Assembly (NCBI GenBank): GCA_033648345.1
Contig: GCA_033648345.1_4121.1
Length of the DNA: 64,000 nucleotides
Direction: 5' to 3' (one strand)
Source of the DNA: a phage
Position 1 is the stretch's first letter. The number at the start of each line of letters is the position of its first letter. Below the pieces are notes generated by a model. That model was not told the DNA's origin and did no database searches. It saw only the letters and a list, made by a program, of their open reading frames with translations. Below are positions 6,987 through 17,857 of the stretch, one piece after another. A program made the position numbers and the translations under genes.

Positions 6987-7188
6987 TGAACATAAAGAAT
7001 TCTACTCCAAACACCTCAGCCCCTCAGAACAAATGTTTCTAAGGACTACAGCACCTTTAAATACTGATACATATTTCGGCAGATTATGCTACAATAATTG
7101 TATTCAAATGACTTTAAACGCAAACGACAATAATAACAGTACTAACATGTACTCAGGCATCATAGGTATACTATTCCTATATGAATAA
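6979..7188 (+). CDS. FamA small paralog
   Basis: MNNEHKEFY...YNNCIQMT...LFLYE. Confidence 0.65.
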   Translation: MNNEHKEFYSKHLSPSEQMFLRTTAPLNTDTYFGRLCYNNCIQMTLNANDNNNSTNMYSGIIGILFLYE

Positions 7189-7369
7189 TTACAAAGACTT
7201 CTATTTGAATACACTACCTACTGTACTTTCTCTAAGTGCTCAATGTAAAATCCCGCTGGATAATCCTTACGCCAGATATAACTATTCCATAACTGTTAAT
7301 CGATGTATAGAGAATCATTGCAGTACTAACCAGTACTATAACATAATCCTACTTATATTCAGGTACTAA
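7181..7369 (+). CDS. FamA small paralog
   Basis: MNNYKDFY...ILLIFRY. Confidence 0.65.
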   Translation: MNNYKDFYLNTLPTVLSLSAQCKIPLDNPYARYNYSITVNRCIENHCSTNQYYNIILLIFRY

Positions 7370-7370
7370 T

Positions 7371-7550
7371 ATGAACGAACACAAAGACTTCTATATAAGA
7401 AAACTAACATTCGTCCCCGTAAAAATATATAAAGAATGCGACCCAAGATTATACCTATGGCACTTCAATGAGTGCATAAAAGATTCTATATACCCTAAGA
7501 ACTATAAAGAACAATTGTGCTCAGTACTAACACTAGTACTATCATATTAA
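7371..7550 (+). CDS. FamA small paralog (59 aa, absent from ORF track)
   Basis: MNEHKDFYIRKL... by manual translation. Confidence 0.5.
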   Translation: MNEHKDFYIRKLTFVPVKIYKECDPRLYLWHFNECIKDSIYPKNYKEQLCSVLTLVLSY

Positions 7551-7563
7551 TAGAGATAATACT

Positions 7564-7755
7564 ATGCATAAAGACTATAAAGAGTACTATATAAGTAAAC
7601 TCAAAGAGAATGAACAAGCATGGGTTAACAATTTAATCCCCCTGGCAATGACTCAATACGAATTTAATATGTGTACAAAGATTGTTTTAACTAGTAATGA
7701 TATCTCTAATACGTACTACTTCCTATTAAGAGTACTATATGGTACTTTGAAATAA
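7564..7755 (+). CDS. FamA small paralog
   Basis: MHKDYKEYYISKL... Confidence 0.6.
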   Translation: MHKDYKEYYISKLKENEQAWVNNLIPLAMTQYEFNMCTKIVLTSNDISNTYYFLLRVLYGTLK

Positions 7756-7766
7756 TAAGGTATACT

Positions 7767-7973
7767 ATGCAGAACATAAAAAACTATAAAGAGTACTATA
7801 TAAGTAAACTACCACCGACTGACCAAGCATGGATTAGATCTATAATAGTACTGGCATTTAATAGATATGCATTTAACAGATGTACCGAGATTGCTATAGA
7901 CCCTTATAATATTAAAGAGAATGTACAGCATAATCAGTACTACTATATGTTAATGCTTATATATAGGAAGTAA
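7767..7973 (+). CDS. FamA small paralog
   Basis: MQNIKNYKEYYISKL...LMLIYRK. Confidence 0.6.
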   Translation: MQNIKNYKEYYISKLPPTDQAWIRSIIVLAFNRYAFNRCTEIAIDPYNIKENVQHNQYYYMLMLIYRK

Positions 7974-8320
7974 TTCAACATATAGACAGGGGAAGCTCCG
8001 CAGGGAAAGCATTGGACAGGCTTTAACATATGTTATATATGTTAAAATTCAGCCTGCTCGACGTCTGAATTGTTAAAATTCAGCCTGGACAAATGCGATC
8101 ACTAGGATTCTCCCCAGGCTAAACCCCGTAATCATATGTAGTCATAAGTAATCATATATAAACATTTATGTAATCATTTATAATCATTGTAGTGATTAGT
8201 ATTGAGTACTAGAGTGTAATAGAGTGTAATAGAGTACAGGAATGTGCACGTTTAATCAAGAACGTAGCAGTACTGCCCCAAAAGTATTCAGTACTGAAGG
8301 TGTCGATATCCCACTAAGTA

Positions 8321-8346
8321 GGCAGAGGAAGTCTGCCGTACTTTTT
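8321..8346 (+). terminator. Terminator-like hairpin
   Basis: GGCAGA-GGAAG-TCTGCC followed by GTACTTTTT. Confidence 0.4.
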
Positions 8347-8681
8347 AGTTTCCAAGCTCCTTTTCCATTTTGCAAATTACATCAAATGTAATCAAAAGTA
8401 ATCACGCAATGATTAGTACTGAATTATTACTTTCACCTTAATTTCAATTACCCCTTTACCCTTCGGGGTAAAATTCCATTACCCCTTGAGGCTCCAGCAA
8501 AAAGTTGGTTAGTACTCCATCCTAAATCTCGATCCTAAAAATTTTGGAGTACCTATGAAATAAAAGTTGGATCTTCGAAAGTTGAAATTTACGTTGGGAC
8601 GTTTGTGATTTGTGGGATATAATGATGTTTGTAGTCGGGTAGTTCTCAAGAATATCAGTACTGAATGGTGAAAGAAAGTTA

Positions 8682-8709
8682 TTGACATTATGATTCAGTA
8701 CTGTATAAT
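8682..8709 (+). promoter_or_regulatory. Orphan sigma70-type promoter in non-coding region
   Basis: TTGACA-16-TATAAT followed by GTTTTACAT; no long ORF downstream. Confidence 0.45.
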
Positions 8710-9096
8710 GTTTTACATAGAGAGATGAGTTGCCGCAAACAATTCATTCACTCTACTTCCTGTCGTGAGACAGTACAGAAAGATAGTTCCTCCTATGGGT
8801 GGTACATCTTTTAGAACCTCTTTTTTCGTAATATGAACAGTACTGATATTAACAGAATGGTGTCAATACTGATTTTAATCTAAAGCATTATGCCACCAGC
8901 TTGTGCTGGTGGATTCCCTCTAACAGTATTCAGTACTACATGATAGTCTTCATCCTCCTAGGGTAACATAGTGAGGGCTATGATGGCAGTACTGAATACT
9001 CCTTTCACAAGATAGATCTATGGTATAGTACTGACGTATTTTGGGCGTAGTTACCCTGGATGGATTTTGGACGTAGATATGTCTAGCCCTCCAGAA

Positions 9097-9240
9097 GTCT
9101 GGAAGTAAATATGGCTATCCATCTAGACGGCTAAACGGCTAGATTTCTGGATGGCTGGGTGGCTGGGTGGCTGGGTGGCTAGACGTTTGGACGGCTAAAC
9201 GGCTAGATGGTTACACGTCTGGAAGTATAGACGGCTAAAT
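9097..9240. repeat. Iteron cluster with near-symmetric architecture
   Basis: (GGCTGGGT)x3.5 tandem at 9153-9180 flanked by two copies of TAGACGGCTAAACGGCTAGAT and outer GTCTGGAAGTA repeats. Confidence 0.65.
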
Positions 9241-9998
9241 CAAAATTTTATTTTGTTTTTTCCAATAGTTCCCCTACCGCGTGGGGATAGTTTCCCCGCA
9301 GTATCTGGAGTTAGATTTTTCTGAATCTGGAATCATTATCTTATAAACTGGGGGCAATGTCAACAGCCTGGACGGATATTTTTAAAAATTTTTTCAGTAC
9401 TGAATTTTGGGCGTAACTATGCACCCGGTGGGCTTGAGTCTTTCTCGACTTGATGGAACTATTATACAGTACTGGAAAAATAAAGCAATACCCTGGAAGC
9501 AAAAAAGTTTTAATTAATTTGCTTGCTATCCTGGGCCGGACTATGGTACTATATTTCAGTACTGAGAAAGTGCGTTTACCTGCTAGGGTGCGGGAGTGTA
9601 TCCTTTTTTTATATCTTGAATTTTGGGCGTAATTCCGCACCCTCTGGGGTTTCCGCTTTCTCGCGTCTATGTAGTAATTATACGCTTTTTCAGGATCAAG
9701 TCAATACCTAAAAACAAAATAATTGAAAATAATTTAACGCGTTTAAACGGCCAGTAAAGCCCTGGAATGATTGGAATGGTGCAAATGTATAGCTTAGGTG
9801 TATTAATGCGTTAGAATGCGTCTGAGGCCGTTTTATGGGGTATAGGGATGATTTGGTGGATTGATTCAGTACTGAATAATAGTACTACTATATAGAAAGA
9901 TAGTTCCCCTGGATGGTTGCAGTACTGAATGATAGTACTGAATAATAGTTCCCCTATATAGAAAGAAAACTATTTTAAAAAGTATTTGTAGAAAGTAC

Positions 9999-10026
9999 TT
10001 GCAAACTAAGTTTAACGGCGTATAAT
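9999..10026 (+). promoter_or_regulatory. Class-I early promoter
   Basis: AAAGTACTTGCAA-16-TATAAT-GTTTTACATC consensus. Confidence 0.6.
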
Positions 10027-10081
10027 GTTTTACATCGAGAGCGGGAACACTTCCCGCTACATATTACGAGAGATTAAAACG

Positions 10082-10444
10082 ATGGCGACTCAAATCACTA
10101 AAATTATTGCTAACCTGGTTAACTTCCGCGACGAGATGAAAGGTCTTCCGGCTGAAACGGTAAAAATTCACATCGCAGCTTATCGGGAACTTATTGCAAT
10201 GTTGCCGCTTAAGCGTGAACAATACGCCGCGACCGTGATGCTTGATGCGATGATCCATAAGATGATCGCCAGTGATTTGACGATGGCGTATCAGTATATG
10301 GGTGAATTGTTCGCGGTGTATAGTAAACCAGTACCAGGAATGGAAAGTACAGAAGTATTACACGGTTTAAATTTAAAACAAGATGCATGGGATAATATGC
10401 CTCGTTTCCTGGTATGGGCTGACAGTGGCAAGATTTACGAATAA
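10082..10444 (+). CDS. Hypothetical early protein (120 aa)
   Basis: Start moved from track ORF 10025 to Met after the 5'UTR hairpin GCGGGAACACTTCCCGC. Confidence 0.65.
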   Translation: MATQITKIIANLVNFRDEMKGLPAETVKIHIAAYRELIAMLPLKREQYAATVMLDAMIHKMIASDLTMAYQYMGELFAVYSKPVPGMESTEVLHGLNLKQDAWDNMPRFLVWADSGKIYE

Positions 10445-10458
10445 GTTTTAGAAAGTAC

Positions 10459-10486
10459 TTGCAAACTAAGTTTAAAAGCGTATAAT
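10459..10486 (+). promoter_or_regulatory. Class-I early promoter
   Basis: TTGCAA-16-TATAAT. Confidence 0.6.
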
Positions 10487-10536
10487 GTTTTACATCAGGT
10501 GGGGAATAGTTCCCCACTATATAAGAGGATTAAAAA

Positions 10537-10776
10537 ATGGCTAAATCAAAAATGTTCTTAGGTCACAAAAACAAAACTCATTGGAATGTAAGCCTTTGGA
10601 TTAATAACGATGAGTCATTGTACCGGTTGGCCCTGGACTTTATTGCCGCCAATACTAATCGCAATGATGCGGCCCGTCATATGATGTTATTTTTAGAACA
10701 GACTGGACAAGATAAAACACCGGACGGATTCAAATATAGCACTACTGCGATCCGTGCGGCGATGGTTGGAATGTAA
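10537..10776 (+). CDS. Hypothetical early protein; paralog of 12576..12815
   Basis: Shared GHKNKTxWNVSLWINN...TPDGFKYSTTAIRAAMVGM; SD AAGAGGA. Confidence 0.7.
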   Translation: MAKSKMFLGHKNKTHWNVSLWINNDESLYRLALDFIAANTNRNDAARHMMLFLEQTGQDKTPDGFKYSTTAIRAAMVGM

Positions 10777-10861
10777 TAGAATTTATTTAAAGTACTATCG
10801 CAAAAAATGATAGTACTTTATAATAGTGTTTTATTCATACACCAACGATAAGGGCAACAGC

Positions 10862-11128
10862 ATGAATATTAAGTATTTTGCGACGCGTGAACAAGCTCGG
10901 ATCGCCGCACGCCAGGACGGGGCAACGTTTAAAGATATGGGCGTACAATCGGAACGTGGTAAACGTTGGGCCATTATAAAGCGTAGTACCGCCAGATCAT
11001 TACAGTACTGGTTAGCGGCGTTAAAAAGTCCCGATAGTGTATCGCGTCGAGTGGTAGAAATAAAGCTCGACCGAAAGGGCAACCGCGTGACCGTGTACCG
11101 TACTAAAAAGATTGCAGTACTTGAATAA
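10862..11128 (+). CDS. Hypothetical early protein; paralog of 23885..24280
   Basis: Shared KYFATREQARIAARQDGATFKDMG and DRKGNRVTVY motifs; start moved to MNIKYF. Confidence 0.65.
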   Translation: MNIKYFATREQARIAARQDGATFKDMGVQSERGKRWAIIKRSTARSLQYWLAALKSPDSVSRRVVEIKLDRKGNRVTVYRTKKIAVLE

Positions 11129-11135
11129 AAAGTAC

Positions 11136-11163
11136 TTGCAAACTATGTTTAATGGCGTATAAT
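11136..11163 (+). promoter_or_regulatory. Class-I early promoter
   Basis: TTGCAA-16-TATAAT. Confidence 0.6.
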
Positions 11164-11215
11164 GTTTTACATCGAGAGCGGGAACACTTCCCGCCTATAA
11201 CCTGGAGTAATAAAA

Positions 11216-11446
11216 ATGACTAATATGTATATGACTGAAGTTAAAACCGTAAAAGATACTACCACGAATAAAACTACTTACTTACAGCGGATCTGCGGTG
11301 TATGGCAACGTATCAGCAAATCAAAGTACTTTAAATTAACATCATATGCAAACCGTTCGGATTCATTCAGTACTGAAATAAAAGGTAATAAAGTACACCA
11401 ATACGGCACTTATTATTATTATAGCCTGGACGCGATTGCAGTATAA
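11216..11446 (+). CDS. Hypothetical early protein (76 aa)
   Basis: ORF after promoter, hairpin and SD GGAGT. Confidence 0.6.
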   Translation: MTNMYMTEVKTVKDTTTNKTTYLQRICGVWQRISKSKYFKLTSYANRSDSFSTEIKGNKVHQYGTYYYYSLDAIAV

Positions 11447-11476
11447 GCAGTTTACAAATCTTTACAATTGCCGGTA

Positions 11477-11505
11477 TTGACTTATTTTGTCAGTACTGGC
11501 ATAAT
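11477..11505 (+). promoter_or_regulatory. Promoter of convergent pair (candidate small-RNA promoter)
   Basis: TTGACT-17-CATAAT; no ORF downstream, followed by the conserved CCCA-GGGTGC leader motif. Confidence 0.5.
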
Positions 11506-11620
11506 GTATTCATTGGCAGATAAGCCGTAGCCCATAGGGTGCGGGAGTGTATCTATAGAAAAAGTAGTTTATTACAGTTACAATTGTGCACCCGGTGGGT
11601 TAGCTGTTGTCATGGGGTAT

Positions 11621-11649
11621 ATTATGCCAGTACTTGATAATGCTGTCAA
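11621..11649 (-). promoter_or_regulatory. Convergent minus-strand promoter
   Basis: Reverse complement reads TTGACA-17-CATAAT and faces the promoter at 11477. Confidence 0.5.
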
Positions 11650-11695
11650 TACTTTTTTTTACTATTCAGTACTGAAAACTATTTTTAAAAAGTAC

Positions 11696-11723
11696 TTGCA
11701 AACTATGTTTAAAGGCGTATAAT
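11696..11723 (+). promoter_or_regulatory. Class-I early promoter (P1 of tandem pair)
   Basis: TTGCAA-16-TATAAT followed by structured leader ACATCAGGACGGGGAACG... Confidence 0.55.
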
Positions 11724-11813
11724 GTTTTACATCAGGACGGGGAACGAAATAAGTAACTCCCCGTTAAGTAGCCCAGGAGTAAGGCACACGAAAAACTCCC
11801 CTGATAAAATAGT

Positions 11814-11841
11814 TTGACAAATGTTTTTAAAAGCGTATAAT
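11814..11841 (+). promoter_or_regulatory. Promoter P2 of tandem pair
   Basis: TTGACA-16-TATAAT. Confidence 0.55.
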
Positions 11842-11873
11842 ACTTACATCAACTACTGAATGAGGGTTACAAA

Positions 11874-12485
11874 ATGAAAACTATCACTACTACTACTTTC
11901 GTTATGGATTTTTCTGAATTGAACGCAGAACAAAAAACGTCAGCTATCGAACTGGTTCGGGAACGTGAAAAAAACTCAAACGACAATTATTTTTCTGAAA
12001 GTGAAATTGAATACTATAAAGAAACAGTACTACCGGAATATGGCATTAATGACGCTGAAATACAATTCAGTGGTTTTTGGTCCCAGGGTGACGGTGCATC
12101 AATCAGTACTGACCACGTTGACGGTGTGAAGTTTTTACGCAAGGTAAGAGCATTAACTAAGTATCGCTCAATCCGTCACTTGCTGAATGAAGATGATTTG
12201 GCGATGAGTGTAAAGCGTTCTCATTCTTTGTACTTGCATGAGAATACTGTAAGCGGGTACATTGAATCGGCTTACACTGATTTAACCGCAAAACAAGAAA
12301 CGTTAGTTAATGAGCTTGAGGAACTACTCACTGAAACTATTCGTGAATTATCCCGCAAGTTGTACCGTGATTTAGAGAATGCATATGAGGATCAATTCAC
12401 TACTGAAAACATCGTATCACTGATTGAGGGTAACGAATATCAATTCAATGTTATTGATGGCGTAGTAGAATCAATCGAATATTAA
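11874..12485 (+). CDS. Hypothetical acidic early protein (203 aa)
   Basis: ORF with upstream tandem promoters; SD GAGGG. Confidence 0.7.
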   Translation: MKTITTTTFVMDFSELNAEQKTSAIELVREREKNSNDNYFSESEIEYYKETVLPEYGINDAEIQFSGFWSQGDGASISTDHVDGVKFLRKVRALTKYRSIRHLLNEDDLAMSVKRSHSLYLHENTVSGYIESAYTDLTAKQETLVNELEELLTETIRELSRKLYRDLENAYEDQFTTENIVSLIEGNEYQFNVIDGVVESIEY

Positions 12486-12497
12486 TTCAAAAAGTAC

Positions 12498-12525
12498 TTG
12501 CAAACTAAGTTTAAAAGCGTATAAT
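12498..12525 (+). promoter_or_regulatory. Class-I early promoter
   Basis: TTGCAA-16-TATAAT. Confidence 0.6.
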
Positions 12526-12575
12526 ACTTTATATCGAGGCGGGGAGTGGTTCCCCGCTCAAACGAGGATTTAAAA

Positions 12576-12815
12576 ATGGCTAGTACTAAAACTTATAACG
12601 GACACAAAAACAAAACTCAATGGAATGTAAGCCTTTGGATTAATAACGGTGAGTCATTGTATCGGCTTGCACAAAGTTGTATCGCACAAAGTAGAACTAA
12701 AGATATTGCAGCGGAATGCATGTACCGCAGATTAAAAGCCAACGGTACTACTACAACGCCGGACGGCTTTAAGTATAGCACTACTGCGATCCGTGCTGCA
12801 ATGGTTGGAATGTAA
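12576..12815 (+). CDS. Hypothetical early protein; paralog of 10537..10776
   Basis: Start moved to MASTKTYNGHK after hairpin GGCGGGGAGTGGTTCCCCGC. Confidence 0.7.
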   Translation: MASTKTYNGHKNKTQWNVSLWINNGESLYRLAQSCIAQSRTKDIAAECMYRRLKANGTTTTPDGFKYSTTAIRAAMVGM

Positions 12816-12873
12816 TATTCAGTACTGTAACAATGGCGGGGAATGGTTCCCGCCTTTATTGAGGGTTTATCTA

Positions 12874-13134
12874 ATGAGTAAAGTAATTAACTATACAGTA
12901 CTAAGCAAGTCATTGTCTATCAGTGAATGCACCGATGGTTTTTGGCTTTATGATGAAACGCGTGGAATGAATTTAGCTATGCGTGTAAAAACTGCTGAGG
13001 CGGCGTATCTTGAGGCACTGGAATACTACCAGGAACGTTTAACGGAAGTAGAAGAAGATTATAAAAGCCTCAAAGCGAAAGTAGATCATTTCGTCGGTCA
13101 ATTCATCGAGGAAGACGACGATAAACAATACTGA
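12874..13134 (+). CDS. Hypothetical early protein (86 aa)
   Basis: Start moved to MSKVINY after hairpin GGCGGGGAATGGTTCCCGCC and SD GAGGG. Confidence 0.6.
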   Translation: MSKVINYTVLSKSLSISECTDGFWLYDETRGMNLAMRVKTAEAAYLEALEYYQERLTEVEEDYKSLKAKVDHFVGQFIEEDDDKQY

Positions 13135-13222
13135 AAAAAAGTACTTGCAATTAGTTTTCAGTACTGTATAATAGTTTACATCAAGTGGAGAAATGGTTCT
13201 CCCTGGTAATGAGGAAAATAAA

Positions 13223-13444
13223 ATGGCTAATATCACTACTCTTTCCCAACTGGAAGCACTGGTTAAATCTATGCGGGAACATGCCGACAAAATCGGCGTA
13301 CAAGATCCAGCCGTTTGCTTCTGCGACGAATTGAATGATGATACCCTTGTAATAGCAGAAGTCCAGGACGTTTCTAACTATTCCTCGCGTTACACTGGCG
13401 GCGTAGCAAATAAAGGCGACTTCTGTTTATACCTTACAAAATAA
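13223..13444 (+). CDS. Hypothetical early protein (73 aa)
   Basis: Start moved to MANITT after hairpin and SD. Confidence 0.6.
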   Translation: MANITTLSQLEALVKSMREHADKIGVQDPAVCFCDELNDDTLVIAEVQDVSNYSSRYTGGVANKGDFCLYLTK

Positions 13445-13449
13445 CAACG

Positions 13450-13480
13450 CGGGGAGATAATAACTCCCCGTTACTTTTTC
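13450..13480 (+). terminator. Rho-independent terminator
   Basis: CGGGGAGATAATAACTCCCCG followed by TTACTTTTT. Confidence 0.6.
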
Positions 13481-13550
13481 AGTACTGAATCATTTAATAG
13501 ACGGATCTATGCACCCGGTGGGTTAGTGACTGTTTCGTCTTGATGTAGTA

Positions 13551-13579
13551 ATTATGCCAGTACTGGATGCAGTTGTCAA
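13551..13579 (-). promoter_or_regulatory. Minus-strand promoter with conserved leader (candidate small RNA)
   Basis: Reverse complement TTGACA-17-CATAAT followed by ACATCAAGACG...CCCACCGGGTGCAT; no ORF. Confidence 0.45.
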
Positions 13580-13612
13580 CAACTATTTTTCAAATACTTT
13601 TTATTAAAATAC

Positions 13613-13640
13613 TTGCAATTAGTTTTTAAACGCGTATAAT
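13613..13640 (+). promoter_or_regulatory. Class-I early promoter
   Basis: TTGCAA-16-TATAAT. Confidence 0.55.
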
Positions 13641-13687
13641 GTTTTGCATAGGGGGAGCGGTTCCCCTGGTAACTAAGGAATAATAAA

Positions 13688-13924
13688 ATGCTTGAACAAA
13701 TCAAATCAACGTCTGCGAATGTAACGGGAACGGTAGCACACTTTACTAGTGATGAATCGCGGGGCGTTCCCTATTGTGCTGTACATGTAAACACTGATGG
13801 CAACTACTGGTTTACGGTTTACGGATCATATTCATTTGGACGGCCTGGGCATCAAAAAATTCTGGATAAAGTACAACCAACGGGTAAAAATATCACTGCC
13901 GAAATGTTTTATAAAAAATCATAA
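13688..13924 (+). CDS. Hypothetical early protein (78 aa)
   Basis: Hairpin GGGGGAGCGGTTCCCC then SD AAGGAA. Confidence 0.65.
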   Translation: MLEQIKSTSANVTGTVAHFTSDESRGVPYCAVHVNTDGNYWFTVYGSYSFGRPGHQKILDKVQPTGKNITAEMFYKKS

Positions 13925-13929
13925 AGTAC

Positions 13930-13957
13930 TTGATAATAGTTTTTAGTACTGTATAAT
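13930..13957 (+). promoter_or_regulatory. Early promoter
   Basis: TTGATA-16-TATAAT. Confidence 0.5.
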
Positions 13958-14008
13958 ATTTTACATCGCAAGGGGGAGCGGTTCCCCCTAGTAACTAAGG
14001 ATAATCAA

Positions 14009-14308
14009 ATGAAAATTGCAATCATCGCCCTGGCTTTATCTGTTTCCTCTTTCGCTGTTAATGCGTCATTAGATGTAAGTAGTGAAAAATTCATTCAGTG
14101 CACTGTTGCAATGACCGATGAAAGAACTGGCGAGATTGTATTAAAGGATTTAGAGATCCAGCCGGAAGCATTTAAAAACGGCCCGTTCCATGAAGAAGAC
14201 GAAAACGGTAGCACAACAATTTATTATGATGCCAGTACTAAACGCGGTTCGGTCACTGTAATGGATACTGAGAAAGTAACTCATACTGGCGTTATTAATT
14301 GCCGTTGA
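14009..14308 (+). CDS. Small secreted/periplasmic protein
   Basis: N-terminal signal-peptide-like MKIAIIALALSVSSFAVNA. Confidence 0.65.
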   Translation: MKIAIIALALSVSSFAVNASLDVSSEKFIQCTVAMTDERTGEIVLKDLEIQPEAFKNGPFHEEDENGSTTIYYDASTKRGSVTVMDTEKVTHTGVINCR

Positions 14309-14329
14309 TAGATACTACGGGGTAACATC

Positions 14330-14560
14330 ATGACTAAGCGAATTGTTTTACTTAACGAAAGCAGTACTACACAACTACTTAACGCCGTGCATTATGATAT
14401 TGAAACGAGCGTTAATCTTATCAGTACTGTAGTACTGTTGGACACTGGAAAGGTCGCCAATGATAAAGCGATTGCAGGTATATTAACGGATCTTGAGCCT
14501 GGTAGCAGTGCACCAATAACGTTAAATGGTAAAGTGTTTAATATTTTACTCACTGATTAA
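14330..14560 (+). CDS. Hypothetical protein (76 aa)
   Basis: ORF closely following upstream gene. Confidence 0.55.
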   Translation: MTKRIVLLNESSTTQLLNAVHYDIETSVNLISTVVLLDTGKVANDKAIAGILTDLEPGSSAPITLNGKVFNILLTD

Positions 14561-14566
14561 GTACAT

Positions 14567-14594
14567 AGCCCACCTGGTGGGCTTTTTTGTTTTT
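14567..14594 (+). terminator. Rho-independent terminator
   Basis: AGCCCACC-TGGTGGGCT followed by TTTTTTGTTTTTG. Confidence 0.75.
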
Positions 14595-14642
14595 GTAGTA
14601 TCGTAGTACTGAGATACTTTGAAAATAGTTTTAAAAAAGTAG

Positions 14643-14670
14643 TTGACATTACCGCAGAAAAGCGTAGAAT
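14643..14670 (+). promoter_or_regulatory. Early promoter
   Basis: TTGACA-16-TAGAAT followed by conserved leader ACATCAAGACGGGGAGC. Confidence 0.5.
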
Positions 14671-14793
14671 GTATTACATCAAGACGGGGAGCACTAAGTA
14701 GACCGCCAGTAAGTCGAACGAAAAACTGGACACGTCGAGAAAACTTTGATACACTAATAAACGTAAACTAAACTTTAATTGAGGATTTATAAA

Positions 14794-15276
14794 ATGGCTA
14801 ATGTAAAATCATTCATCAAAGCACTGGTAGCAAATGAAACTAACGTCGCGGCAGAGATCCTGGCTGAACTGGATAACGATACCATGAAAGCGGTACGCAA
14901 TAATTTTAACATCGCGTACAGTACTGCGAAAGAACTACAAGCAAATAAAGCAGCAGAGATCGAGGCAGCAAAGGCGGCCCGTGAAGCAGAACTACAAGCA
15001 ACAATTGAAAGTATTCAGGCGGCAGTAGTTGGATTGGATCTGGAAGTAGTTACAGAGATGGCACAAAAAGCCCTGGCGAAAAAGTACGGGGAAGACAAGC
15101 CAGAAGTAAAAGCCAAAAAATGGATTCAAGAACGTGTAGCGGTAGTACTTGATAATGGGGAAGAATATCTGATTCCGGTGCGTGGTAACTGCATTGCTGT
15201 AGTACTGGATGCGATTAACTCCAGCGGTATGACTCGCGAGGAATGGATCGAAGCTCATCGCAAAGTGGAAGCATAA
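14794..15276 (+). CDS. Hypothetical protein with Ala/Glu-rich helical segment (160 aa)
   Basis: Start moved to MANVKSF after SD GAGGA. Confidence 0.65.
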   Translation: MANVKSFIKALVANETNVAAEILAELDNDTMKAVRNNFNIAYSTAKELQANKAAEIEAAKAAREAELQATIESIQAAVVGLDLEVVTEMAQKALAKKYGEDKPEVKAKKWIQERVAVVLDNGEEYLIPVRGNCIAVVLDAINSSGMTREEWIEAHRKVEA

Positions 15277-15297
15277 CAATTAAAGTACTGAATCACT

Positions 15298-15325
15298 AGC
15301 CCACTGTATAAGTGGGCTTTTTTGT
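15298..15325 (+). terminator. Rho-independent terminator
   Basis: AGCCCAC-TGTATAA-GTGGGCT followed by TTTTTTG. Confidence 0.75.
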
Positions 15326-15477
15326 GTTTATCGTTTACCAGGCCACCAGCACCGCCTAGAATCGATTCTAACGCATTAAACTGATTATCTGATGCATCGC
15401 CCTAGCTGGTGGAGTTAAGGCCGTTAGAATGCGATTTAGAGCGTTTAAAGTATTTTGCAAAAAGTAATAAAAAGTAC

Positions 15478-15505
15478 TTGCACGATTCAGAGATTAGCGT
15501 ATAAT
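15478..15505 (+). promoter_or_regulatory. Class-I early promoter
   Basis: TTGCAC-16-TATAAT. Confidence 0.5.
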
Positions 15506-15550
15506 GTTTTACATCAAGGCGAAACACCTTAACTAACTGAGGATATAAAG

Positions 15551-15703
15551 ATGAATACTTATGAACTGGATTGTTTCACTATGCAAGTAATGTTAGTATG
15601 CAGTAAAAAAGAATGGTCATCAAAGGAATTTAAAGCAGTTATTGCGTGTGCAAAACACGGCAAGACTATCAATGAAACGGCATCAATCATTGATAAACTT
15701 TAA
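15551..15703 (+). CDS. Small hypothetical protein (50 aa, absent from ORF track)
   Basis: Manual translation MNTYELDCFTMQ... with SD GAGGA. Confidence 0.45.
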   Translation: MNTYELDCFTMQVMLVCSKKEWSSKEFKAVIACAKHGKTINETASIIDKL

Positions 15704-15711
15704 AAAATAGT

Positions 15712-15740
15712 TTGACAATAGTTTTAAGTACTGACATAAT
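15712..15740 (+). promoter_or_regulatory. Class-II early promoter
   Basis: TTGACA-17-CATAAT with AGTACTG before the -10. Confidence 0.6.
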
Positions 15741-15773
15741 ACATACATCAACTACTGAATAGGAATCAAAACA

Positions 15774-16001
15774 ATGGCTATCGTAATCACTCGCGTATCT
15801 GGTACTACTGGCAATTCTTCTACTGTTGCTGTAATTACTAATAAGAAAGGTGCGGAATTACATTTTGCAATGAATACCTGGGCGGTGAATGAGTTCGGTC
15901 AGTGGGCTAGTGTAGAATACATTGAAACCTATCAAGTGCCAACCATTAGCTTAACGGATCTCGGCGTAGATCGTATCTTATGCCTGGATGAATTAAATTA
16001 A
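15774..16001 (+). CDS. Hypothetical early protein (75 aa)
   Basis: ORF after promoter; SD AGGAA. Confidence 0.65.
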   Translation: MAIVITRVSGTTGNSSTVAVITNKKGAELHFAMNTWAVNEFGQWASVEYIETYQVPTISLTDLGVDRILCLDELN

Positions 16002-16008
16002 AAAAGTA

Positions 16009-16037
16009 CTTGCAAAGTAAATCAAATAAAGTATAAT
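16009..16037 (+). promoter_or_regulatory. Class-I early promoter
   Basis: TTGCAA-17-TATAAT; hairpin GGGGAGAAATGGTTCTCCCC at 16050-16069. Confidence 0.6.
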
Positions 16038-16086
16038 ACATTACATCAAGGGGAGAAATGGTTCTCCCCACTACAAGGAAACTAAA

Positions 16087-16230
16087 ATGAAAACTTGTCA
16101 ATGTGGTCAGAAATCTATTACGGGTTTAAAGCGGGGCGTTGCTCTTTGCCAGTACCATTATAATTTACAAGTATGGGGTAAAGAATGGGCCGACCAGGTG
16201 GAAGCAGCAAAGAAAGCAAAAAGTAAGTAA
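16087..16230 (+). CDS. Small Cys-containing (zinc-ribbon-like) protein (47 aa, absent from ORF track)
   Basis: Manual translation MKTCQCGQKS...CQYH with SD AAGGAA. Confidence 0.5.
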   Translation: MKTCQCGQKSITGLKRGVALCQYHYNLQVWGKEWADQVEAAKKAKSK

Positions 16231-16311
16231 AAATATTATCACAGTACTATTGACATAGTTTGATAGTACTGGCATAATAGATTTTATCAAGACAACTAAG
16301 AGGAAACAATA
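16221..16311 (+). repeat. Duplicated ~91-bp promoter cassette (copy 1)
   Basis: Near-identical to 16515..16605; contains TTGACA-17-CATAAT and SD AAGAGGAAA. Confidence 0.8.
16250..16278 (+). promoter_or_regulatory. Class-II early promoter
   Basis: TTGACA-17-CATAAT. Confidence 0.6.
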
Positions 16312-16524
16312 ATGGCTATCATCACAAAAATCAAAGTAAACAAATCACTGGTTAAGCTGGAAGAAGTGAAAGAAGGTTATAAAGTATCGTGGTGCGGCAT
16401 GTATCGGATTTTTACAGATGTTGACGATGCAATCAATTACTACACTGACACGGTAAAAAACTTTGTTCGTGCTGATGTGGTTATGGCAGTGGCAACACAC
16501 AAAGCATCGAAAGAAAGTAAGTAA
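16312..16524 (+). CDS. Hypothetical early protein (70 aa)
   Basis: ORF downstream of duplicated promoter cassette. Confidence 0.65.
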   Translation: MAIITKIKVNKSLVKLEEVKEGYKVSWCGMYRIFTDVDDAINYYTDTVKNFVRADVVMAVATHKASKESK

Positions 16525-16605
16525 AAATATTATCACAGTACTATTGACATAGTTTGATAGTACTGGCATAATAGATTTTATCAAGACAACTAAGAGGAAA
16601 TTAAA
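16515..16605 (+). repeat. Duplicated ~91-bp promoter cassette (copy 2)
   Basis: Near-identical to 16221..16311. Confidence 0.8.
16544..16572 (+). promoter_or_regulatory. Class-II early promoter
   Basis: TTGACA-17-CATAAT. Confidence 0.6.
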
Positions 16606-16950
16606 ATGGCTAACATCAACACTATCGCAGCACAAAATATCAACCTGTCTTCTGTTGAAGTTGTACATATTGCCGCTCGGCGTTGGTTCCAGGCTTCATA
16701 TGGTAACACTTATTTCTCTTTAAGTGTAGACGTAGAAATTGATGGTAATTTTATTGAAGTAGTAAACGTGCCGTTCCAATATGGATACGGGGATCATTTT
16801 GACACTGTAGCAATGGAAGAATTTAGCAAGGTTATTAATATGGAAGGTAAAGAGTTTTTACGCGGTTCTTATCTTTCACGTTTTTGCCGTGATAATAATA
16901 TCACTGTTTACAGTTCGGTAACTGATGTTAAACGCAAAAAAGATCTTTAA
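16606..16950 (+). CDS. Hypothetical early protein; paralog of 23466..23789
   Basis: Shared GNTY...F.YGYG...DVKRKKD motifs. Confidence 0.7.
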   Translation: MANINTIAAQNINLSSVEVVHIAARRWFQASYGNTYFSLSVDVEIDGNFIEVVNVPFQYGYGDHFDTVAMEEFSKVINMEGKEFLRGSYLSRFCRDNNITVYSSVTDVKRKKDL

Positions 16951-17030
16951 TTAGCTTTACTTTATGCAGATACTTTGATATAGTGTCTGCATAGGGGAAA
17001 GAAATTAAATTAACTTAAGAGGATAGTATA

Positions 17031-17300
17031 ATGAAAAATATCAGTACTTTAATTGATGCAGGTACACATGTTCGGCGGTCTATGGTTGCAACCAGTACTA
17101 CAAAACAAGTAGCAAGCGGTTATCTTGTATTTGTGCACGATGGAAAACTCCTGGAACGTTCAATCAATTTTGATGTTAAAAACAATTGCCGTTTTATTAT
17201 TTTTAAGCGTGAACAATATAAAATTGATTTACCAGCGAAGCCCATTAGCGGGGCGTATAACGTCTATTCATTGTTTGAGCGTCAACCATACACCTATTAA
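17031..17300 (+). CDS. Hypothetical protein (89 aa)
   Basis: SD AAGAGGA; upstream inverted repeat TGCAGA...TCTGCA. Confidence 0.6.
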   Translation: MKNISTLIDAGTHVRRSMVATSTTKQVASGYLVFVHDGKLLERSINFDVKNNCRFIIFKREQYKIDLPAKPISGAYNVYSLFERQPYTY

Positions 17301-17351
17301 TCAAAACATCGTTAGCGGTCGATTTAGGCCGCTTATATTGGGGATTATACC

Positions 17352-17624
17352 ATGAACGTTAATCAAGTACTGAATGAGATCGAAAGCATCATTAAACCAA
17401 TGAAACGCATTGATGCTATGTTAACACCGGAAGAATGCCGCCTTTATGAGCGTTACAGCGTCGAACAAGTCCAGGCAATGGCTATGGCTACCCCAGCCGT
17501 TAAACAGCCTGAGAACGCGTTACAGGACGTTACAGGGGATTATATCATCAATCCAGTACTAGGGAAGATGGCGGCAATCACCGAAGATCAACAAGACTAC
17601 TTAAGCCAGTACTTAAAAGGTTAA
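17352..17624 (+). CDS. Hypothetical protein (90 aa)
   Basis: ORF with SD GGGGA. Confidence 0.6.
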   Translation: MNVNQVLNEIESIIKPMKRIDAMLTPEECRLYERYSVEQVQAMAMATPAVKQPENALQDVTGDYIINPVLGKMAAITEDQQDYLSQYLKG

Positions 17625-17629
17625 TTAAT

Positions 17630-17839
17630 ATGCTTACTGTACAGGATAAGATCGACATCTTAAAGGTTAATATGTATGTGATTGATGCCGTACCTGGTAA
17701 AGTATTTGCATACGATGACACTACTGTAAGCGATTTCTACTATAGCCAGGCCGTGGGGGATCTTTCTGTACAGTCGGTTATTGAAAACGTAGTTAATGCA
17801 GCGTATGAGCATTTACTTTCAAATAGTACTTGCAATTAG
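17630..17839 (+). CDS. Hypothetical protein (69 aa)
   Basis: ORF whose 3' end overlaps the next promoter. Confidence 0.55.
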   Translation: MLTVQDKIDILKVNMYVIDAVPGKVFAYDDTTVSDFYYSQAVGDLSVQSVIENVVNAAYEHLLSNSTCN

Positions 17840-17857
17840 TTTTTAAACGCGTATAAT
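17830..17857 (+). promoter_or_regulatory. Class-I early promoter
   Basis: TTGCAA-16-TATAAT; hairpin GGGGAGAAATGATTCTCCCC follows. Confidence 0.6.

What the first reader, a model, noticed from the sequence alone, without database searches (positions are those of the whole stretch)
7974..10020. 2-kb gene-free region separating the FamA array from the early block
In a genome otherwise packed at near 100% coding density this is the only long non-coding stretch. It holds direct repeats (TAATCAT x5, AGAGTGTAAT x2, GTTAAAATTCAGCCTG x2), the 12-bp palindrome TAACATATGTTA, a UUCG-tetraloop hairpin (TTTACCC-TTCG-GGGTAAA), a perfect hairpin CCACCAGC-TTGT-GCTGGTGG, orphan promoters in both orientations and the iteron cluster. 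It also marks a shift in base composition and codon usage. It may be a regulatory hub such as an origin or early/late switch, or a module boundary.
Basis: seen in the sequence. Interest (0 to 1): 0.5.

Follow-up and report, generated by a model that had tools for sequence, protein, structure and literature searches.

The report
Jumbo-phage genome end and leader
The 2-kb gene-free stretch holds the physical end of a giant E. coli phage chromosome, followed by a conserved non-coding leader that carries bacterial promoters, RecBCD 'Chi' signals and a long row of sites resembling the binding boxes of the host methionine repressor MetJ.

Summary
The window comes from an Asteriusvirus (121Q/PBECO4/G17-like jumbo coliphage).

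Four independently deposited, end-resolved genomes start their ~21-kb direct terminal repeat (DTR) at the base matching window 8317. They end it at 29734. The region is therefore 343 bp of variable unique DNA plus a 1,765-bp conserved non-coding DTR leader.

Several listed elements change meaning:
- The 'perfect hairpin' is two back-to-back Chi sites. All 12 Chi sites in the window lie inside the DTR, and 10 share one orientation.
- The 'iteron cluster' is a 21-slot, 8-bp-periodic array that scores like genuine E. coli MetJ operators.
- Arrays of the same kind sit in or beside the terminal repeats of unrelated DTR phages (T5-like, T7-like). Nearly all of these infect bacterial orders that have MetJ.
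- GTTAAAATTCAGCCTG x2 is a duplication found only in this genome.

The leader also carries sigma-70 promoters on both strands. Three point leftward; two of them head a promoter-plus-hairpin cassette conserved across the RaK2-like clade.

No ORF is conserved, and there are no DnaA boxes. The 'module boundary / regulatory hub' reading is supported. The 'origin' reading is not. MetJ binding, RecBCD response and transcription are inferred, not shown.

The parts
7974..8316 (.). Unique 'pre-terminus' spacer between the last FamA gene and the DTR. Contains the palindrome TAACATATGTTA (8024), a 31-bp tandem duplication (8040-8101), 10-bp TAATCAT-type repeats (8128-8188), the AGAGTGTAAT slippage repeat (8206-8235) and two CAGTACTG copies (8268, 8289).
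   Evidence: This is the most variable part of the 11-genome alignment. The 31-bp duplication is absent from all 10 relatives, and AGAGTGTAAT copy number varies. It aligns to BF17 right-end unique DNA, not to BF17 position 1 onward.
8317..8317 (.). Physical left terminus of virion DNA and first base of the direct terminal repeat. The DTR spans 8317-29734 (21,418 bp).
   Evidence: BF17, fEgEco12, vB_Ec-M-J and G17 all begin or end their DTR with AGTAGGCAGAGGAAGTCTGCC..., which maps to window 8317. The G17 repeat is 1-20668 = 350150-370817 at 100% identity. The BF17 repeat is 20,590 bp. BF17 and G17 share the right boundary ...GGGTAACCT, which maps to window 29734. For fEgEco12 the ends were found by PhageTerm and confirmed by restriction digests (PMC13070987).
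8321..8345 (+). Terminal hairpin GGCAGA-GGAAG-TCTGCC followed by a T-run, 5 nt inside the end. Possibly a terminator for FamA read-through, or part of the cleavage signal.
   Evidence: Terminator-like hit. The stem is conserved in 10 of 11 genomes; in most relatives the T-run reads TTTGT.
8455..8472 (.). UUCG-loop hairpin TTTACCC-TTCG-GGGTAAA.
   Evidence: Present at 8455. Kept in most relatives, duplicated in ph0011, expanded in A4, deleted in CMSTMSU. Function unknown.
8492..8558 (.). Block B1. Contains the inverted repeat GTACTCCA-N27-TGGAGTAC, which encloses two CCTAAA motifs 13 bp apart.
   Evidence: About 100% conserved within the genus. It is 82-93% identical at positions 54-192 from the DTR start of Klebsiella phage fENko-Kae01 and Xanthomonas phage XbC2. 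TCCATCCTAAA also occurs in the T7 left-end 13-bp CCTAAAG repeats.
8594..8623 (+). Promoter-like site TTGGGA-18-TATAAT, pointing rightward.
   Evidence: lies in a conserved stretch.
8682..8718 (+). Orphan consensus sigma-70 promoter TTGACA-16-TATAAT. CAGTACTG sits in its spacer, and it has the same TATAATGTTTTACAT -10 and start region as the early-gene promoters. No conserved ORF lies downstream.
   Evidence: 12/12 match. It is one of 26 TATAATGTTTTACAT-type sites, all on the + strand and all inside the DTR. The downstream 29-aa ORF is truncated or lost in the relatives.
8893..8912 (.). Back-to-back Chi sites CCACCAGC-TTGT-GCTGGTGG. The left arm lies 577 bp from the left end, in the orientation recognised by RecBCD entering at that end.
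   Evidence: Chi occurs 12 times in the window against 0.62 expected. All 12 lie in 8893-28371, with 10 on the + strand. One-mismatch variants are not enriched. The arms are invariant in the nine aligned genomes that keep both Chi octamers while the loop varies (TTGT, ACAA, TTAA). The orientation rule is taken from PMC12315714.
9069..9236 (.). Array of 21 in-register 8-mers, consensus AGACGGCT, with CTAG at unit junctions. It resembles tandem MetJ 'met boxes' (AGACGTCT).
   Evidence: 17 of 21 slots match AGACGTCT at 5/8 or better. The same criterion finds only the two intergenic sites upstream of metB and metF in a 5.9-kb E. coli met locus, and nothing else in the 64-kb window. The longest run in 300 simulations was 4 boxes. 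Homologous arrays occur in 96 phage records. None was found in 5,426 E. coli genomes.
9266..9363 (-). Leftward promoter TTGACA-17-GATAAT (9363-9335) and a downstream hairpin (about 9270-9300). Its transcript would run into the met-box array.
   Evidence: The promoter hexamers are conserved in fENko-Kae01, and the hairpin there shows changes on both sides of pairs, read directly from the alignment.
9380..9490 (-). Cassette B. Leftward promoter CAGTACTG-TATAAT, followed by a conserved ~60-nt start region with a small hairpin AGUC-GAGAAA-GACU.
   Evidence: A third copy lies at 13475-13567.
9566..9710 (-). Cassette A. Leftward promoter TTGACT-16-TATAAT (9704-9677). Its transcript start carries a 3-bp stem with a GAGAAA loop, and a long-range inverted repeat GGGTGCGG...CCGCACCC.
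   Evidence: The cassette, with its -35, -10 and start region, is conserved in Asteriusvirus, Mimasvirus, Eneladusvirus, Alcyoneusvirus and the 7t3/Kae01 group. The consensus fold has 10 pairs, 4 of them with compensatory changes. Strong long hairpins are predicted in most genera.
9740..9860 (.). Conserved block of unknown role. It shares words (TTAGAATGCG, GGCCGTT, GCGTTTAAA) with the intergenic region around 15360-15450.
   Evidence: Conservation of 0.9-1.0 in the genus alignment. The similarity to 15360-15450 was read from the sequence context.
9864..9960 (.). 13-bp repeats AGTACTGAATAAT containing CAGTACTG. Copy number varies between genomes.
9999..10081 (+). Promoter of the first early gene (AAAGTACTTGCAA-16-TATAATGTTTTACAT), a 5'-UTR hairpin GCGGGAACACTTCCCGC, and a ribosome-binding site. 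The ATG is at 10082.
   Evidence: BF17 and vB_Ec-M-J annotate the 363-nt CDS that starts here.

Best explanation
The stretch is the junction between right-end unique DNA and the ~21.4-kb direct terminal repeat of an Asteriusvirus jumbo phage.

Shown:
- The virion chromosome begins at window 8317.
- 7974-8316 is a fast-evolving spacer outside the repeat.
- 8317-10081 is a non-coding leader conserved in order across several genera of RaK2-like phages.

Inferred function: the leader is an end-management and early-control region that works through host machinery rather than through encoded proteins.
1. Terminase cuts at 8317, so cleavage and packaging signals should lie nearby.
2. The double Chi at 8893-8912 and the Chi-rich DTR turn RecBCD from a degrading into a recombining enzyme at both chromosome ends. 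This would protect the ends and promote RecA-driven joining of the two repeats.
3. Host sigma-70 RNA polymerase fires from consensus promoters in both directions. Rightward promoters lead toward the early genes. Two of the three leftward promoters head conserved cassettes that make short structured RNAs, or form DNA hairpins, of unknown role.
4. The 21-slot met-box-like array binds the host repressor MetJ.
5. The dense CAGTACTG palindromes, often placed just upstream of the -10 element, act as operators for an unidentified dimeric regulator.
For: Identity:
- Megablast finds the region at 87-96% identity in 42 Asteriusvirus records, mostly unannotated.
- The G17 ends are a 20,668-bp exact repeat.
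- Four end-resolved records start at the same base, window 8317.
- BF17 and G17 share the same right boundary, window 29734.
- The window is colinear with BF17 position 1 onward from 8317, and with BF17 right-end unique DNA before it.
- Experimental termini are published for relatives.

Non-coding: no ORF is intact across 11 genomes, and Rfam gives nothing.

Conservation: sequence conservation resumes about 12 nt before 8317, after the most variable stretch. Blocks keep the same order near the DTR start of fENko-Kae01, XbC2, fHe-Yen9-04 and Muenster.

Chi: with the orientation rule and the precedents of terminally clustered Chi in P1 and LLS from PMC12315714.

Met boxes. The MetJ consensus and its taxonomic range come from PMC4239095.

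Promoters.

CAGTACTG: 64 copies against 0.66 expected. Density is 5.3 per kb in the leader, 1.5 in the DTR genes and 0.44 elsewhere. It directly abuts the -10 element at many sites.
Against: - No reads from this genome were available, so 8317 is inferred from relatives.
- Nothing here shows transcription, MetJ binding or a RecBCD response.
- AGTACT and GTAC are over-represented across the whole window (286 against 21 expected), so part of the CAGTACTG excess is a general sequence signature.
- Phage A4 lacks both Chi octamers at this position, CMSTMSU keeps only one, and no Chi was found in the Muenster leader. The 7t3/Kae01 and Muenster leaders lack the met-box array. These two elements are therefore dispensable in some lineages.
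- The two cleavage sites (8317 and 29734) share no clear motif.
- Asteriusvirus variants with GGGTGGGG in one arm of the cassette A repeat show no compensating change in the other arm.
Confidence: 0.8

Rival explanations
1. Replication origin. Orphan promoters make primer RNAs next to AT-rich unwinding tracts, as at T4 oriF/oriG or T7 phiOL, and the repeat array acts as iterons.
For: The cumulative G-C minimum is at 8535. There are consensus promoters with no genes. AT-rich tracts lie at 9241-9262, 9379-9394 and 9712-9737. T7 has a gene-less promoter, phiOL, in its left-end leader.
Against: There are no DnaA boxes, strict or relaxed. No initiator gene is adjacent. The 'iterons' match the met-box consensus and vary in number. 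The skew minimum coincides with the physical end and with the peculiar FamA composition, so it does not point to an origin on its own.
Confidence: 0.15
2. T5-type injection-stop region. If the right end enters the cell first, the leader of the right DTR copy lies at the inner edge of the repeat. It could then pause DNA transfer, by binding host proteins, until the DTR early genes have been expressed.
For: T5 has a 1,662-bp untranslated region, rich in repeats and palindromes, at the inner end of its terminal repeat. It overruns 270 bp into unique DNA and carries host DnaA boxes (10.1101/866236). Here the region overruns by 343 bp. In the T5-like Vibrio phage Pontus the met-box array lies next to repeats like the T5 DRD repeat TGTGCAAATCCGACA. 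Ten of 12 Chi sites face RecBCD entering from the right end. In the related phage PA5oct, DTR genes are highly transcribed early (PMC7318152).
Against: Two-step transfer has not been reported for these phages. T5 itself has no met-box array. The same leader also sits at the extreme left end. Which end enters first is unknown.
Confidence: 0.15
3. A small-RNA locus. The main products of the region are structured non-coding RNAs made from the conserved leftward cassettes and from the orphan rightward promoter.
For: The cassette, with its promoter and ~50-nt start region, is conserved across five genus-level groups. Stem 1 covaries (CGC/GCG, GUC/GAC, CGA/UCG, GCC/GGC). One pair of the long stem covaries. 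Predicted hairpins reach -48 to -62 kcal/mol in several genera. PA5oct has two abundant non-coding RNAs in its DTR.
Against: There is no Rfam match and no convincing terminators. The core of the long stem is invariant, so it gives no covariation evidence. It could equally be a paired protein site ACCC-N4-GGGT, or a DNA hairpin. Some Asteriusvirus variants break a pair.
Confidence: 0.35
4. The region encodes small proteins that automatic annotation missed or only partly called. Several records annotate 5-8 'hypothetical proteins' here.
For: Automated annotation of several records (WPEC3, WPEC5, SHEFM2K, SD-6_S16, JP4, E9.1 and others) places 5-8 CDSs in the region, and fEgEco12 annotates one, g614, on the - strand.
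Against: Every ORF of 25 aa or more is broken by stops or frameshifts in at least 2 of 11 genomes. The 99-aa ORF that corresponds to g614 is broken in CMSTMSU, A4, UE-S1 and ph0011. Indels are not multiples of three.
Confidence: 0.03

Closest known systems
Left-end non-coding control region and concatemer junction of phage T7
   Same: Both are gene-free leaders at the chromosome end, ahead of the first early gene. Both have short periodic repeats, strong rightward E. coli promoters, a leftward E. coli promoter of unknown role (A0) and a gene-less promoter (phiOL). Both contain a TCCATCCTAAA motif with 13-bp spacing.
   Different: The T7 repeat is 160 bp, with most of the leader outside it; here the leader lies inside a 21-kb repeat. 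T7 uses its own RNA polymerase for phiOL. In the stretch examined, T7 has no Chi pair and no met-box array.
Untranslated repeat region 3 / injection stop signal of phage T5
   Same: Both are 1.6-2-kb untranslated stretches that straddle a boundary between a long terminal repeat and unique DNA. [quoted passage not shown]
   Different: The T5 region lies at the inner (right) end of the left repeat and carries paired DnaA boxes. This one starts at the outer (left) end of the repeat, has no DnaA boxes and carries met-box-like units. T5 lacks those units.
Terminally clustered Chi sites in phages P1 and LLS
   Same: All show exact GCTGGTGG far above chance, concentrated at or near the chromosome ends or terminal repeats, with a strong orientation bias toward RecBCD entering from an end.
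   Different: Here the phage is a virulent jumbo myovirus. The cluster is confined to the DTR: 12 of 12 sites in the DTR, and none in the other 42.6 kb of the window. It also includes two inverted Chi pairs (8893/8905 and 15343/15405).
E. coli MetJ operators (tandem met boxes)
   Same: Both have an 8-bp period, a consensus within one base of AGACGTCT, CTAG at box junctions, and per-box scores equal to those of the sites upstream of metB and metF.
   Different: The phage arrays have 15-29 units, against 2-5 in natural operators (the natural range is from my own knowledge). They do not control a methionine gene. Position 6 is G as often as T. They lie in or beside terminal repeats.

Membership tests
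Direct terminal repeat boundary / physical terminus of Asteriusvirus | The same sequence is present at both ends of linear, end-resolved genome records. | tested here: met
   G17 1-20668 equals 350150-370817 at 100% identity. The BF17 repeat is 20,590 bp.
Direct terminal repeat boundary / physical terminus of Asteriusvirus | The boundary is reproducible to the base in independent isolates and maps into the region. | tested here: met
   BF17, fEgEco12, vB_Ec-M-J and G17 all start at the base matching window 8317. BF17 and G17 share the right boundary at 29734.
Direct terminal repeat boundary / physical terminus of Asteriusvirus | Termini demonstrated for this very genome by read ends, doubled coverage or restriction fragments. 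| not testable with these tools
   No reads were available. Experimental support exists only for relatives (PMC13070987, PMC10059673, PMC6563267).
Chi recombination hotspot (RecBCD) | Exact octamer 5'-GCTGGTGG-3'. | tested here: met
   Twelve exact copies, including both arms of the hairpin at 8893-8912.
Chi recombination hotspot (RecBCD) | Over-representation, plus orientation toward a DNA end where RecBCD can enter. | tested here: met
   Twelve copies against 0.62 expected, and no shuffle reached 12. Ten face the right end and two face the left end. One-mismatch variants are not enriched.
Chi recombination hotspot (RecBCD) | RecBCD-dependent protection or recombination in vivo. | not testable with these tools
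   Requires infection of recB, recD and recA hosts with Chi-mutant phage.
MetJ operator | Two or more tandem 8-bp boxes resembling AGACGTCT. | tested here: met
   17 of 21 in-register slots match at 5/8 or better, with run means of 5.7-6.1. The same test recovers the sites upstream of metB and metF, with means of 6.0 and 5.5, and nothing else. Simulations never exceed 4 boxes.
MetJ operator | The host encodes MetJ. | tested here: met
   The arrays occur in phages of Escherichia, Salmonella, Erwinia, Pectobacterium, Cronobacter, Serratia, Providencia, Vibrio and Aeromonas. These are all MetJ-bearing orders. The one exception is the phage labelled as a Xanthomonas phage, XbC2.
MetJ operator | The site overlaps the promoter of a methionine or SAM gene and represses it. 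| tested here: not met
   No methionine gene is nearby. The array lies in a non-coding leader, downstream of the leftward promoter at 9363-9335. It is therefore not a classical operator, at most a MetJ-binding array.
MetJ operator | SAM-dependent MetJ binding. | not testable with these tools
   Requires EMSA, footprinting or ChIP.
Replication origin (DnaA / iteron type) | DnaA boxes, or iterons with an adjacent initiator gene, next to an AT-rich unwinding element. | tested here: not met
   No TTATCCACA or TTWTNCACA in 7974-10081. No gene lies in the region. AT-rich tracts are present, but on their own they are not diagnostic.
T5-type injection stop region | A conserved untranslated repeat region at a terminal-repeat/unique junction, with paired DnaA boxes and two-step DNA transfer. 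| tested here: inconclusive
   The junction position, the overrun into unique DNA and the conserved order are met. DnaA boxes are absent. Two-step transfer cannot be tested here.
Known RNA families (Rfam 15) | A match to a curated covariance model. | tested here: not met
   No hit at E up to 1 in 7000-11000.

The most novel reading that the evidence does not exclude
The 8-bp array is a MetJ-capturing element that phages place in or beside their terminal repeats, and the host repressor is part of how these chromosomes work.

Arrays of 9-29 met-box-like units occur in three unrelated lineages: RaK2-like jumbo myoviruses, T5-like Demerecviridae of Vibrio, Aeromonas and Providencia, and the T7-like phages phiKT, PGT2 and KPV811. 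With one exception their hosts belong to orders that have MetJ.

Two mechanisms are possible. The array may act as a decoy: as phage DNA replicates, it soaks up MetJ-SAM and switches on methionine and SAM synthesis. Alternatively, a cooperative MetJ filament may anchor, pause or shield the entering DNA end, in the way DnaA boxes are proposed to act at the T5 injection stop signal.

Together with the Chi-loaded repeat, and with the Fur-box-like palindromes in the Klebsiella relatives that lack the array, this would make the leader a panel of host-protein docking sites.
Probability: 0.4. Interest if true: 0.8.

Novelty: new variant of a known kind. Interest (0 to 1): 0.62.

Why it matters
Long terminal repeats are common in large virulent phages, but how their ends are protected, joined, cut and first expressed is poorly understood.

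This leader offers concrete handles that can be mutated: a mapped end, an oriented Chi pair within 0.6 kb of it, gene-less host promoters, and an array that looks like an oversized MetJ operator.

If MetJ binds the array, phages from three unrelated families would be using a host metabolic repressor at their chromosome ends. I found no description of this in the searchable literature.

The result also corrects annotation. The 5-8 'hypothetical proteins' called in this stretch in several GenBank records are not supported.

Tried and rejected
- Rfam scan of 7000-11000 at E up to 1 gave no hit.
- A degenerate pattern for the cassette, scanned against IMG/VR, returned 101 stretches. Only four of the new loci showed real similarity to the region, and three of those were copies of RaK2 or 121Q.
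- Small-ORF hypothesis: rejected.
- DnaA-box origin: rejected. IHF-core and GATC counts were unremarkable.
- Fur boxes: the TAATCAT repeats of this genome do not match the Fur consensus well. The best match in the window is outside the region, at 38672. Good Fur-like sites occur only in Klebsiella relatives.
- MetJ homologue encoded by the phage: tblastn of E. coli MetJ against the window gave only chance hits, E 0.28 or higher.
- A shared motif at the two DTR cleavage sites: none was convincing.
- T5 as a carrier of the met-box array: no. Its DRD repeats have a different sequence.
- E. coli chromosomes, prophages and plasmids as a source of the array: no match in 5,426 genomes.
- Literature on met boxes in phages: nothing found. 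A search for CAGTACTG returned only primer noise.
- Treating the perfect hairpin as a terminator (as ARNOLD does in G17): unlikely, because no T-run follows and the arms are exact Chi octamers.
Full report
**What the window is.** Megablast of 7974-10020 finds 42 phage records, 35 of which cover at least 80% of the query, at 87-96% identity. All are jumbo phages of E. coli or Salmonella, apart from one Erwinia record, and the records examined belong to the genus Asteriusvirus (121Q, PBECO4, G17, phAPEC6, BF17 and others). In most records nothing is annotated under the match.

**The key fact: a chromosome end lies inside the region.**
- G17 is deposited as a linear genome. Its first 20,668 bp are identical to its last 20,668 bp.
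- BF17, fEgEco12 and vB_Ec-M-J begin with AGTAGGCAGAGGAAGTCTGCCGTACTTT..., and the reverse complement of the G17 end reads the same. All four map to window 8317.
- BF17 and G17 also share the other repeat boundary...GGGTAACCT, which maps to window 29734.
- The window is colinear with BF17 position 1 onward from exactly 8317. The match continues through the repeat and into left-end unique DNA. Window 370-8316 matches the BF17 unique DNA that precedes its right repeat.

The window is therefore a map in which the repeat has been collapsed to one copy. The direct terminal repeat (DTR) is 8317-29734, or 21,418 bp.

Published work supports these ends for relatives. For fEgEco12, PhageTerm plus restriction digests gave a 20,993-bp repeat (PMC13070987). 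For BF17, the packaging pattern indicated about 20.5 kb (PMC10059673). For G17, sequence coverage indicated about 20 kb (PMC6563267). For this genome the end is inferred by homology.

**Checking the observation.** The stretch is the longest ORF-poor interval in the window.

I aligned 11 Asteriusvirus genomes over 7900-10160. Identity to the window is 87-98%, similar to the flanking genes, but indels are mostly not multiples of three. Each of the 10 ORFs of 25 aa or more is broken in at least two genomes. It extends to 10081, because the first early gene starts at ATG 10082, downstream of its promoter.

The composition shift is real, and it coincides with the DTR: GC is about 0.39 inside and about 0.32 on both sides.

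**Anatomy.**

*7974-8316* lies outside the repeat and is the least conserved part. The GTTAAAATTCAGCCTG x2 repeat is a 31-bp tandem duplication found in none of the 10 relatives. AGAGTGTAAT varies from zero to two copies. 8200-8305 is full of indels and replacements. Conservation resumes about 12 nt before 8317.

*8317-10081* is the DTR leader. Sensitive BLAST and pairwise alignment show that its blocks recur, in the same order, within the first 0.1-1.4 kb of the DTR or record start of distant relatives. These relatives are fENko-Kae01 and 7t3, XbC2 and Kaldavass (Mimasvirus), fHe-Yen9-04 and Serratia BF (Eneladusvirus), and Muenster and RaK2 (Alcyoneusvirus). A gene-free leader at the start of the repeat is thus a clade-wide feature, and not a local accident.

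**The 'perfect hairpin' is a double Chi site.** CCACCAGC-TTGT-GCTGGTGG consists of the RecBCD hotspot octamer and its reverse complement.
- Chi occurs 12 times in the window against 0.62 expected, and no shuffle reached 12.
- All 12 lie between 8893 and 28371, inside the DTR. None lies in the other 42.6 kb.
- Ten are on the + strand.
- One-mismatch variants are not enriched.
- The sites sit in unrelated coding and intergenic contexts.
- BF17 and G17 show the same pattern.

Top-strand GCTGGTGG is active for RecBCD entering from the right (PMC12315714). The ten + strand sites therefore face the right chromosome end, with the first at 28364, 1.4 kb in. The complement-strand sites at 8893 and 15343 face the left end, with the first 577 bp in.

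In the nine aligned genomes that keep both Chi octamers, the hairpin arms never change while the loop does: TTGT, its inversion ACAA, and TTAA in Kae01. This fits selection on the octamers rather than on a stem.

Terminally clustered Chi is known in P1 and in the lambdoid phage LLS. Finding it confined to the DTR of a virulent jumbo phage is a new instance of that phenomenon.

My inference is that RecBCD entering either end is converted to its recombination mode inside the repeat. This would protect the ends and help RecA pair the two repeats.

**The 'iteron cluster' looks like a giant MetJ operator.** Read in one register from 9069, the array is GGACGTAG ATATGTCT ... AGACGTTT GGACGGCT AAACGGCT AGATGGTT ACACGTCT GGAAGTAT AGACGGCT. 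MetJ operators are tandem 8-bp met boxes with consensus AGACGTCT (PMC4239095).

I used a plain criterion: at least three tandem 8-mers, each matching the consensus at 5 of 8 positions or better.
- In a 5.9-kb E. coli K-12 stretch it picks out exactly two sites, in the metJ-metB intergenic region and just upstream of metF. Each has four boxes, with means of 6.0 and 5.5. This is where MetJ operators are expected.
- In the 64-kb phage window it picks out only this array: 17 of 21 slots, with run means of 5.7-6.1.
- Only one of the eight registers scores (4.85 matches per slot, against 1.0-2.1 for the others).
- In 300 Markov simulations of 64 kb, the longest run was four boxes.
- All 11 Asteriusvirus genomes keep 15-18 boxes. 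The length differences visible in the alignment are multiples of 8.

The position frequencies give RGAHGKCT, with G2, A3, G5, C7 and T8 nearly fixed. The same profile appears in five independent arrays, and the Serratia BF consensus is AGACGTCT itself.

Arrays of this type also occur in XbC2 (15 boxes), Kaldavass (16), Serratia BF (13), fHe-Yen9-04 (9) and GAP32 (9). Outside the clade they occur in the T5-like phages Pontus (17) and AhSzq-1 (29), and in the T7-like PGT2 (3+4).

A database search with the AhSzq-1 array finds 96 phage records. By host these are Escherichia 36, Vibrio 33, Erwinia 7, Aeromonas 5, Salmonella 4, Providencia 4, Pectobacterium 2, Cronobacter 2, Serratia 2 and Xanthomonas 1. 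All but the last belong to orders that carry MetJ; Xanthomonadales and Pseudomonadaceae do not.

Where the record is end-resolved, the arrays lie in or beside terminal repeats: 670-925 bp from the DTR start in jumbo phages, and 38-101 bp in PGT2. In the Vibrio T5-like records they lie 12-450 bp from the record start.

No such array exists in 5,426 complete E. coli genomes, and no MetJ homologue is encoded in the window. I found no paper that links met boxes to phages.

What is shown is a sequence-level match and a host-range correlation. Binding and function are inference. The array is not a classical operator, because it controls no methionine gene.

**Promoters and cassettes.** The early-gene promoter type AAAGTACTTGCAA-N16-TATAATGTTTTACAT occurs 26 times, always on the + strand and only inside the DTR. 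One perfect-consensus copy (8682-8718) sits in the leader with no conserved ORF behind it.

Three leftward promoters follow, at 9363-9335, about 9474-9460 and 9704-9677. The last two head a cassette that is recognisable in every genus examined. The cassette consists of an A-rich upstream tract, a -35 element (TTGAC), a spacer ending in CAGTACT(G), a -10 element (TATAAT or CATAAT), and then ACATAGAC-GCG-AGAAAG-CGG...CCCnAGnGGGTGCGG.

In the consensus fold, the 3-bp stem around the GAGAAA loop covaries (CGC/GCG, GUC/GAC, CGA/UCG, GCC/GGC). A long-range pairing GGGTG(C/G)...(G/C)CACCC is kept, with one covarying pair. Single-sequence folds give long hairpins of -48 to -62 kcal/mol in several genera.

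The invariant core cannot distinguish between an RNA hairpin, a DNA hairpin and two inverted protein sites (ACCC-N4-GGGT). Some Asteriusvirus variants break one pair. A third copy lies at 13475-13567.

**CAGTACTG.** The palindrome occurs 64 times against 0.66 expected. Its density is 5.3 per kb in the leader, 1.5 in the DTR genes and 0.44 elsewhere. At many sites it directly abuts the -10 element.

This placement suits an operator for a dimeric regulator of early promoters. However, AGTACT is 13-fold over-represented across the whole window (286 against 21), so part of the signal is a general sequence signature.

**What it is not.**
- There are no DnaA boxes and no Rfam family.
- The cumulative G-C minimum (8535) sits beside the physical end and the FamA composition change, so it is not independent evidence for an origin.
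- Promoter-primed initiation of the T4 or T7 kind cannot be excluded.

**Closest known systems.**
- The T7 left end has a 925-bp gene-free leader with 13-bp-spaced CCTAAAG repeats, the leftward E. coli promoter A0, the gene-less phiOL, and the strong early promoters A1-A3. Block B1 of this leader even shares TCCATCCTAAA with 13-bp spacing, though with only two copies this may be chance.
- T5 has a 1,662-bp untranslated, repeat-crowded region that straddles the inner boundary of its terminal repeat. It carries host DnaA boxes and is proposed to be the injection stop signal (10.1101/866236). In the T5-like phage Pontus, the met-box array lies next to repeats like the T5 DRD unit, although T5 itself has no such array.
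- If the right end of the Asteriusvirus chromosome enters first, which the Chi orientation bias would fit, the leader of the right repeat copy would occupy the position that the T5 stop signal occupies. This is speculation.

The region as a whole is a new variant of a known kind, a terminal non-coding control region. The DTR and its ends were already known for relatives. The leader's content was not described in anything I could find: the DTR-confined, oriented Chi set, the met-box-like array shared with unrelated DTR phages, and the clade-wide promoter-hairpin cassettes.

Noticed in passing
window 8893-28371 (whole DTR): All 12 Chi octamers of the window lie inside the DTR, 10 of them on the + strand. 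A second inverted Chi pair sits at 15343/15405 in an intergenic gap. None lies in the other 42.6 kb of the window.
   Followed up: yes
whole window: AGTACT occurs 286 times against about 21 expected from base composition, and GTAC 669 times against 202. This is a window-wide over-representation of a palindrome, which is unusual for a phage. Its cause is unknown.
   Followed up: partly
window 13475-13567 (- strand): A third copy of the leftward promoter-plus-hairpin cassette lies among the DTR early genes. Related GGGTGCGGAAGTGTATC words occur near 25870.
   Followed up: partly
L011 (Muenster) 787, 1306, 2422; L010 (fENko-Kae01) 775, 2342: The leaders of the Klebsiella relatives, which lack the met-box array, carry palindromes matching the E. 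coli Fur box at 16-17 of 19 positions (for example GAGAATGATAATGATTCTC). One lies just downstream of the cassette promoter.
   Followed up: partly
It looks like a recent slippage event.
   Followed up: yes
window 8901-8904: The loop between the two Chi arms is TTGT in some genomes and its reverse complement ACAA in BF17, vB_Ec-M-J and ph0011. This is the signature of loop inversion at a DNA palindrome.
   Followed up: partly
window 8515-8540; L131 (T7) 175-345: Block B1 contains TCCATCCTAAA and a second CCTAAA 13 bp away. T7 has the same 11-mer and the same 13-bp spacing in its left-end CCTAAAG repeats.
   Followed up: partly
L127 (Pontus) about 1335-1400; L130 (T5) 9672-10409: In Pontus, repeats of the T5 DRD type (TGCAAATCCGACA) lie immediately next to the met-box array. 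This places the array in the equivalent of T5 repeat region 3.
   Followed up: partly
window 10025-10444: Some records annotate the first early gene from the upstream ATG at 10025 (420 nt). That start lies inside the -10 element of the gene's own promoter. ATG 10082, used in BF17 and vB_Ec-M-J, fits better.
   Followed up: partly
L012 (XbC2) and L124 (Kaldavass): XbC2 is labelled a Xanthomonas phage. Its leader is very similar to that of Erwinia phage Kaldavass, and it carries a 15-box met-box array, although Xanthomonadales lack MetJ. Either the host label or the host history deserves a look.
   Followed up: no
L011 (Muenster) 15-30: The motif GCACCCAGTGGGC, the same ACCC-N-GGGT word as in the cassette arms, lies within 30 nt of the Muenster physical terminus.
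   Followed up: no
window 11447-11873, 15280-15773, 22363-22832: The other long intergenic gaps of the DTR reuse leader-type elements: Chi sites at 15343, 15405 and 22608, and CAGTACTG promoters.
   Followed up: no
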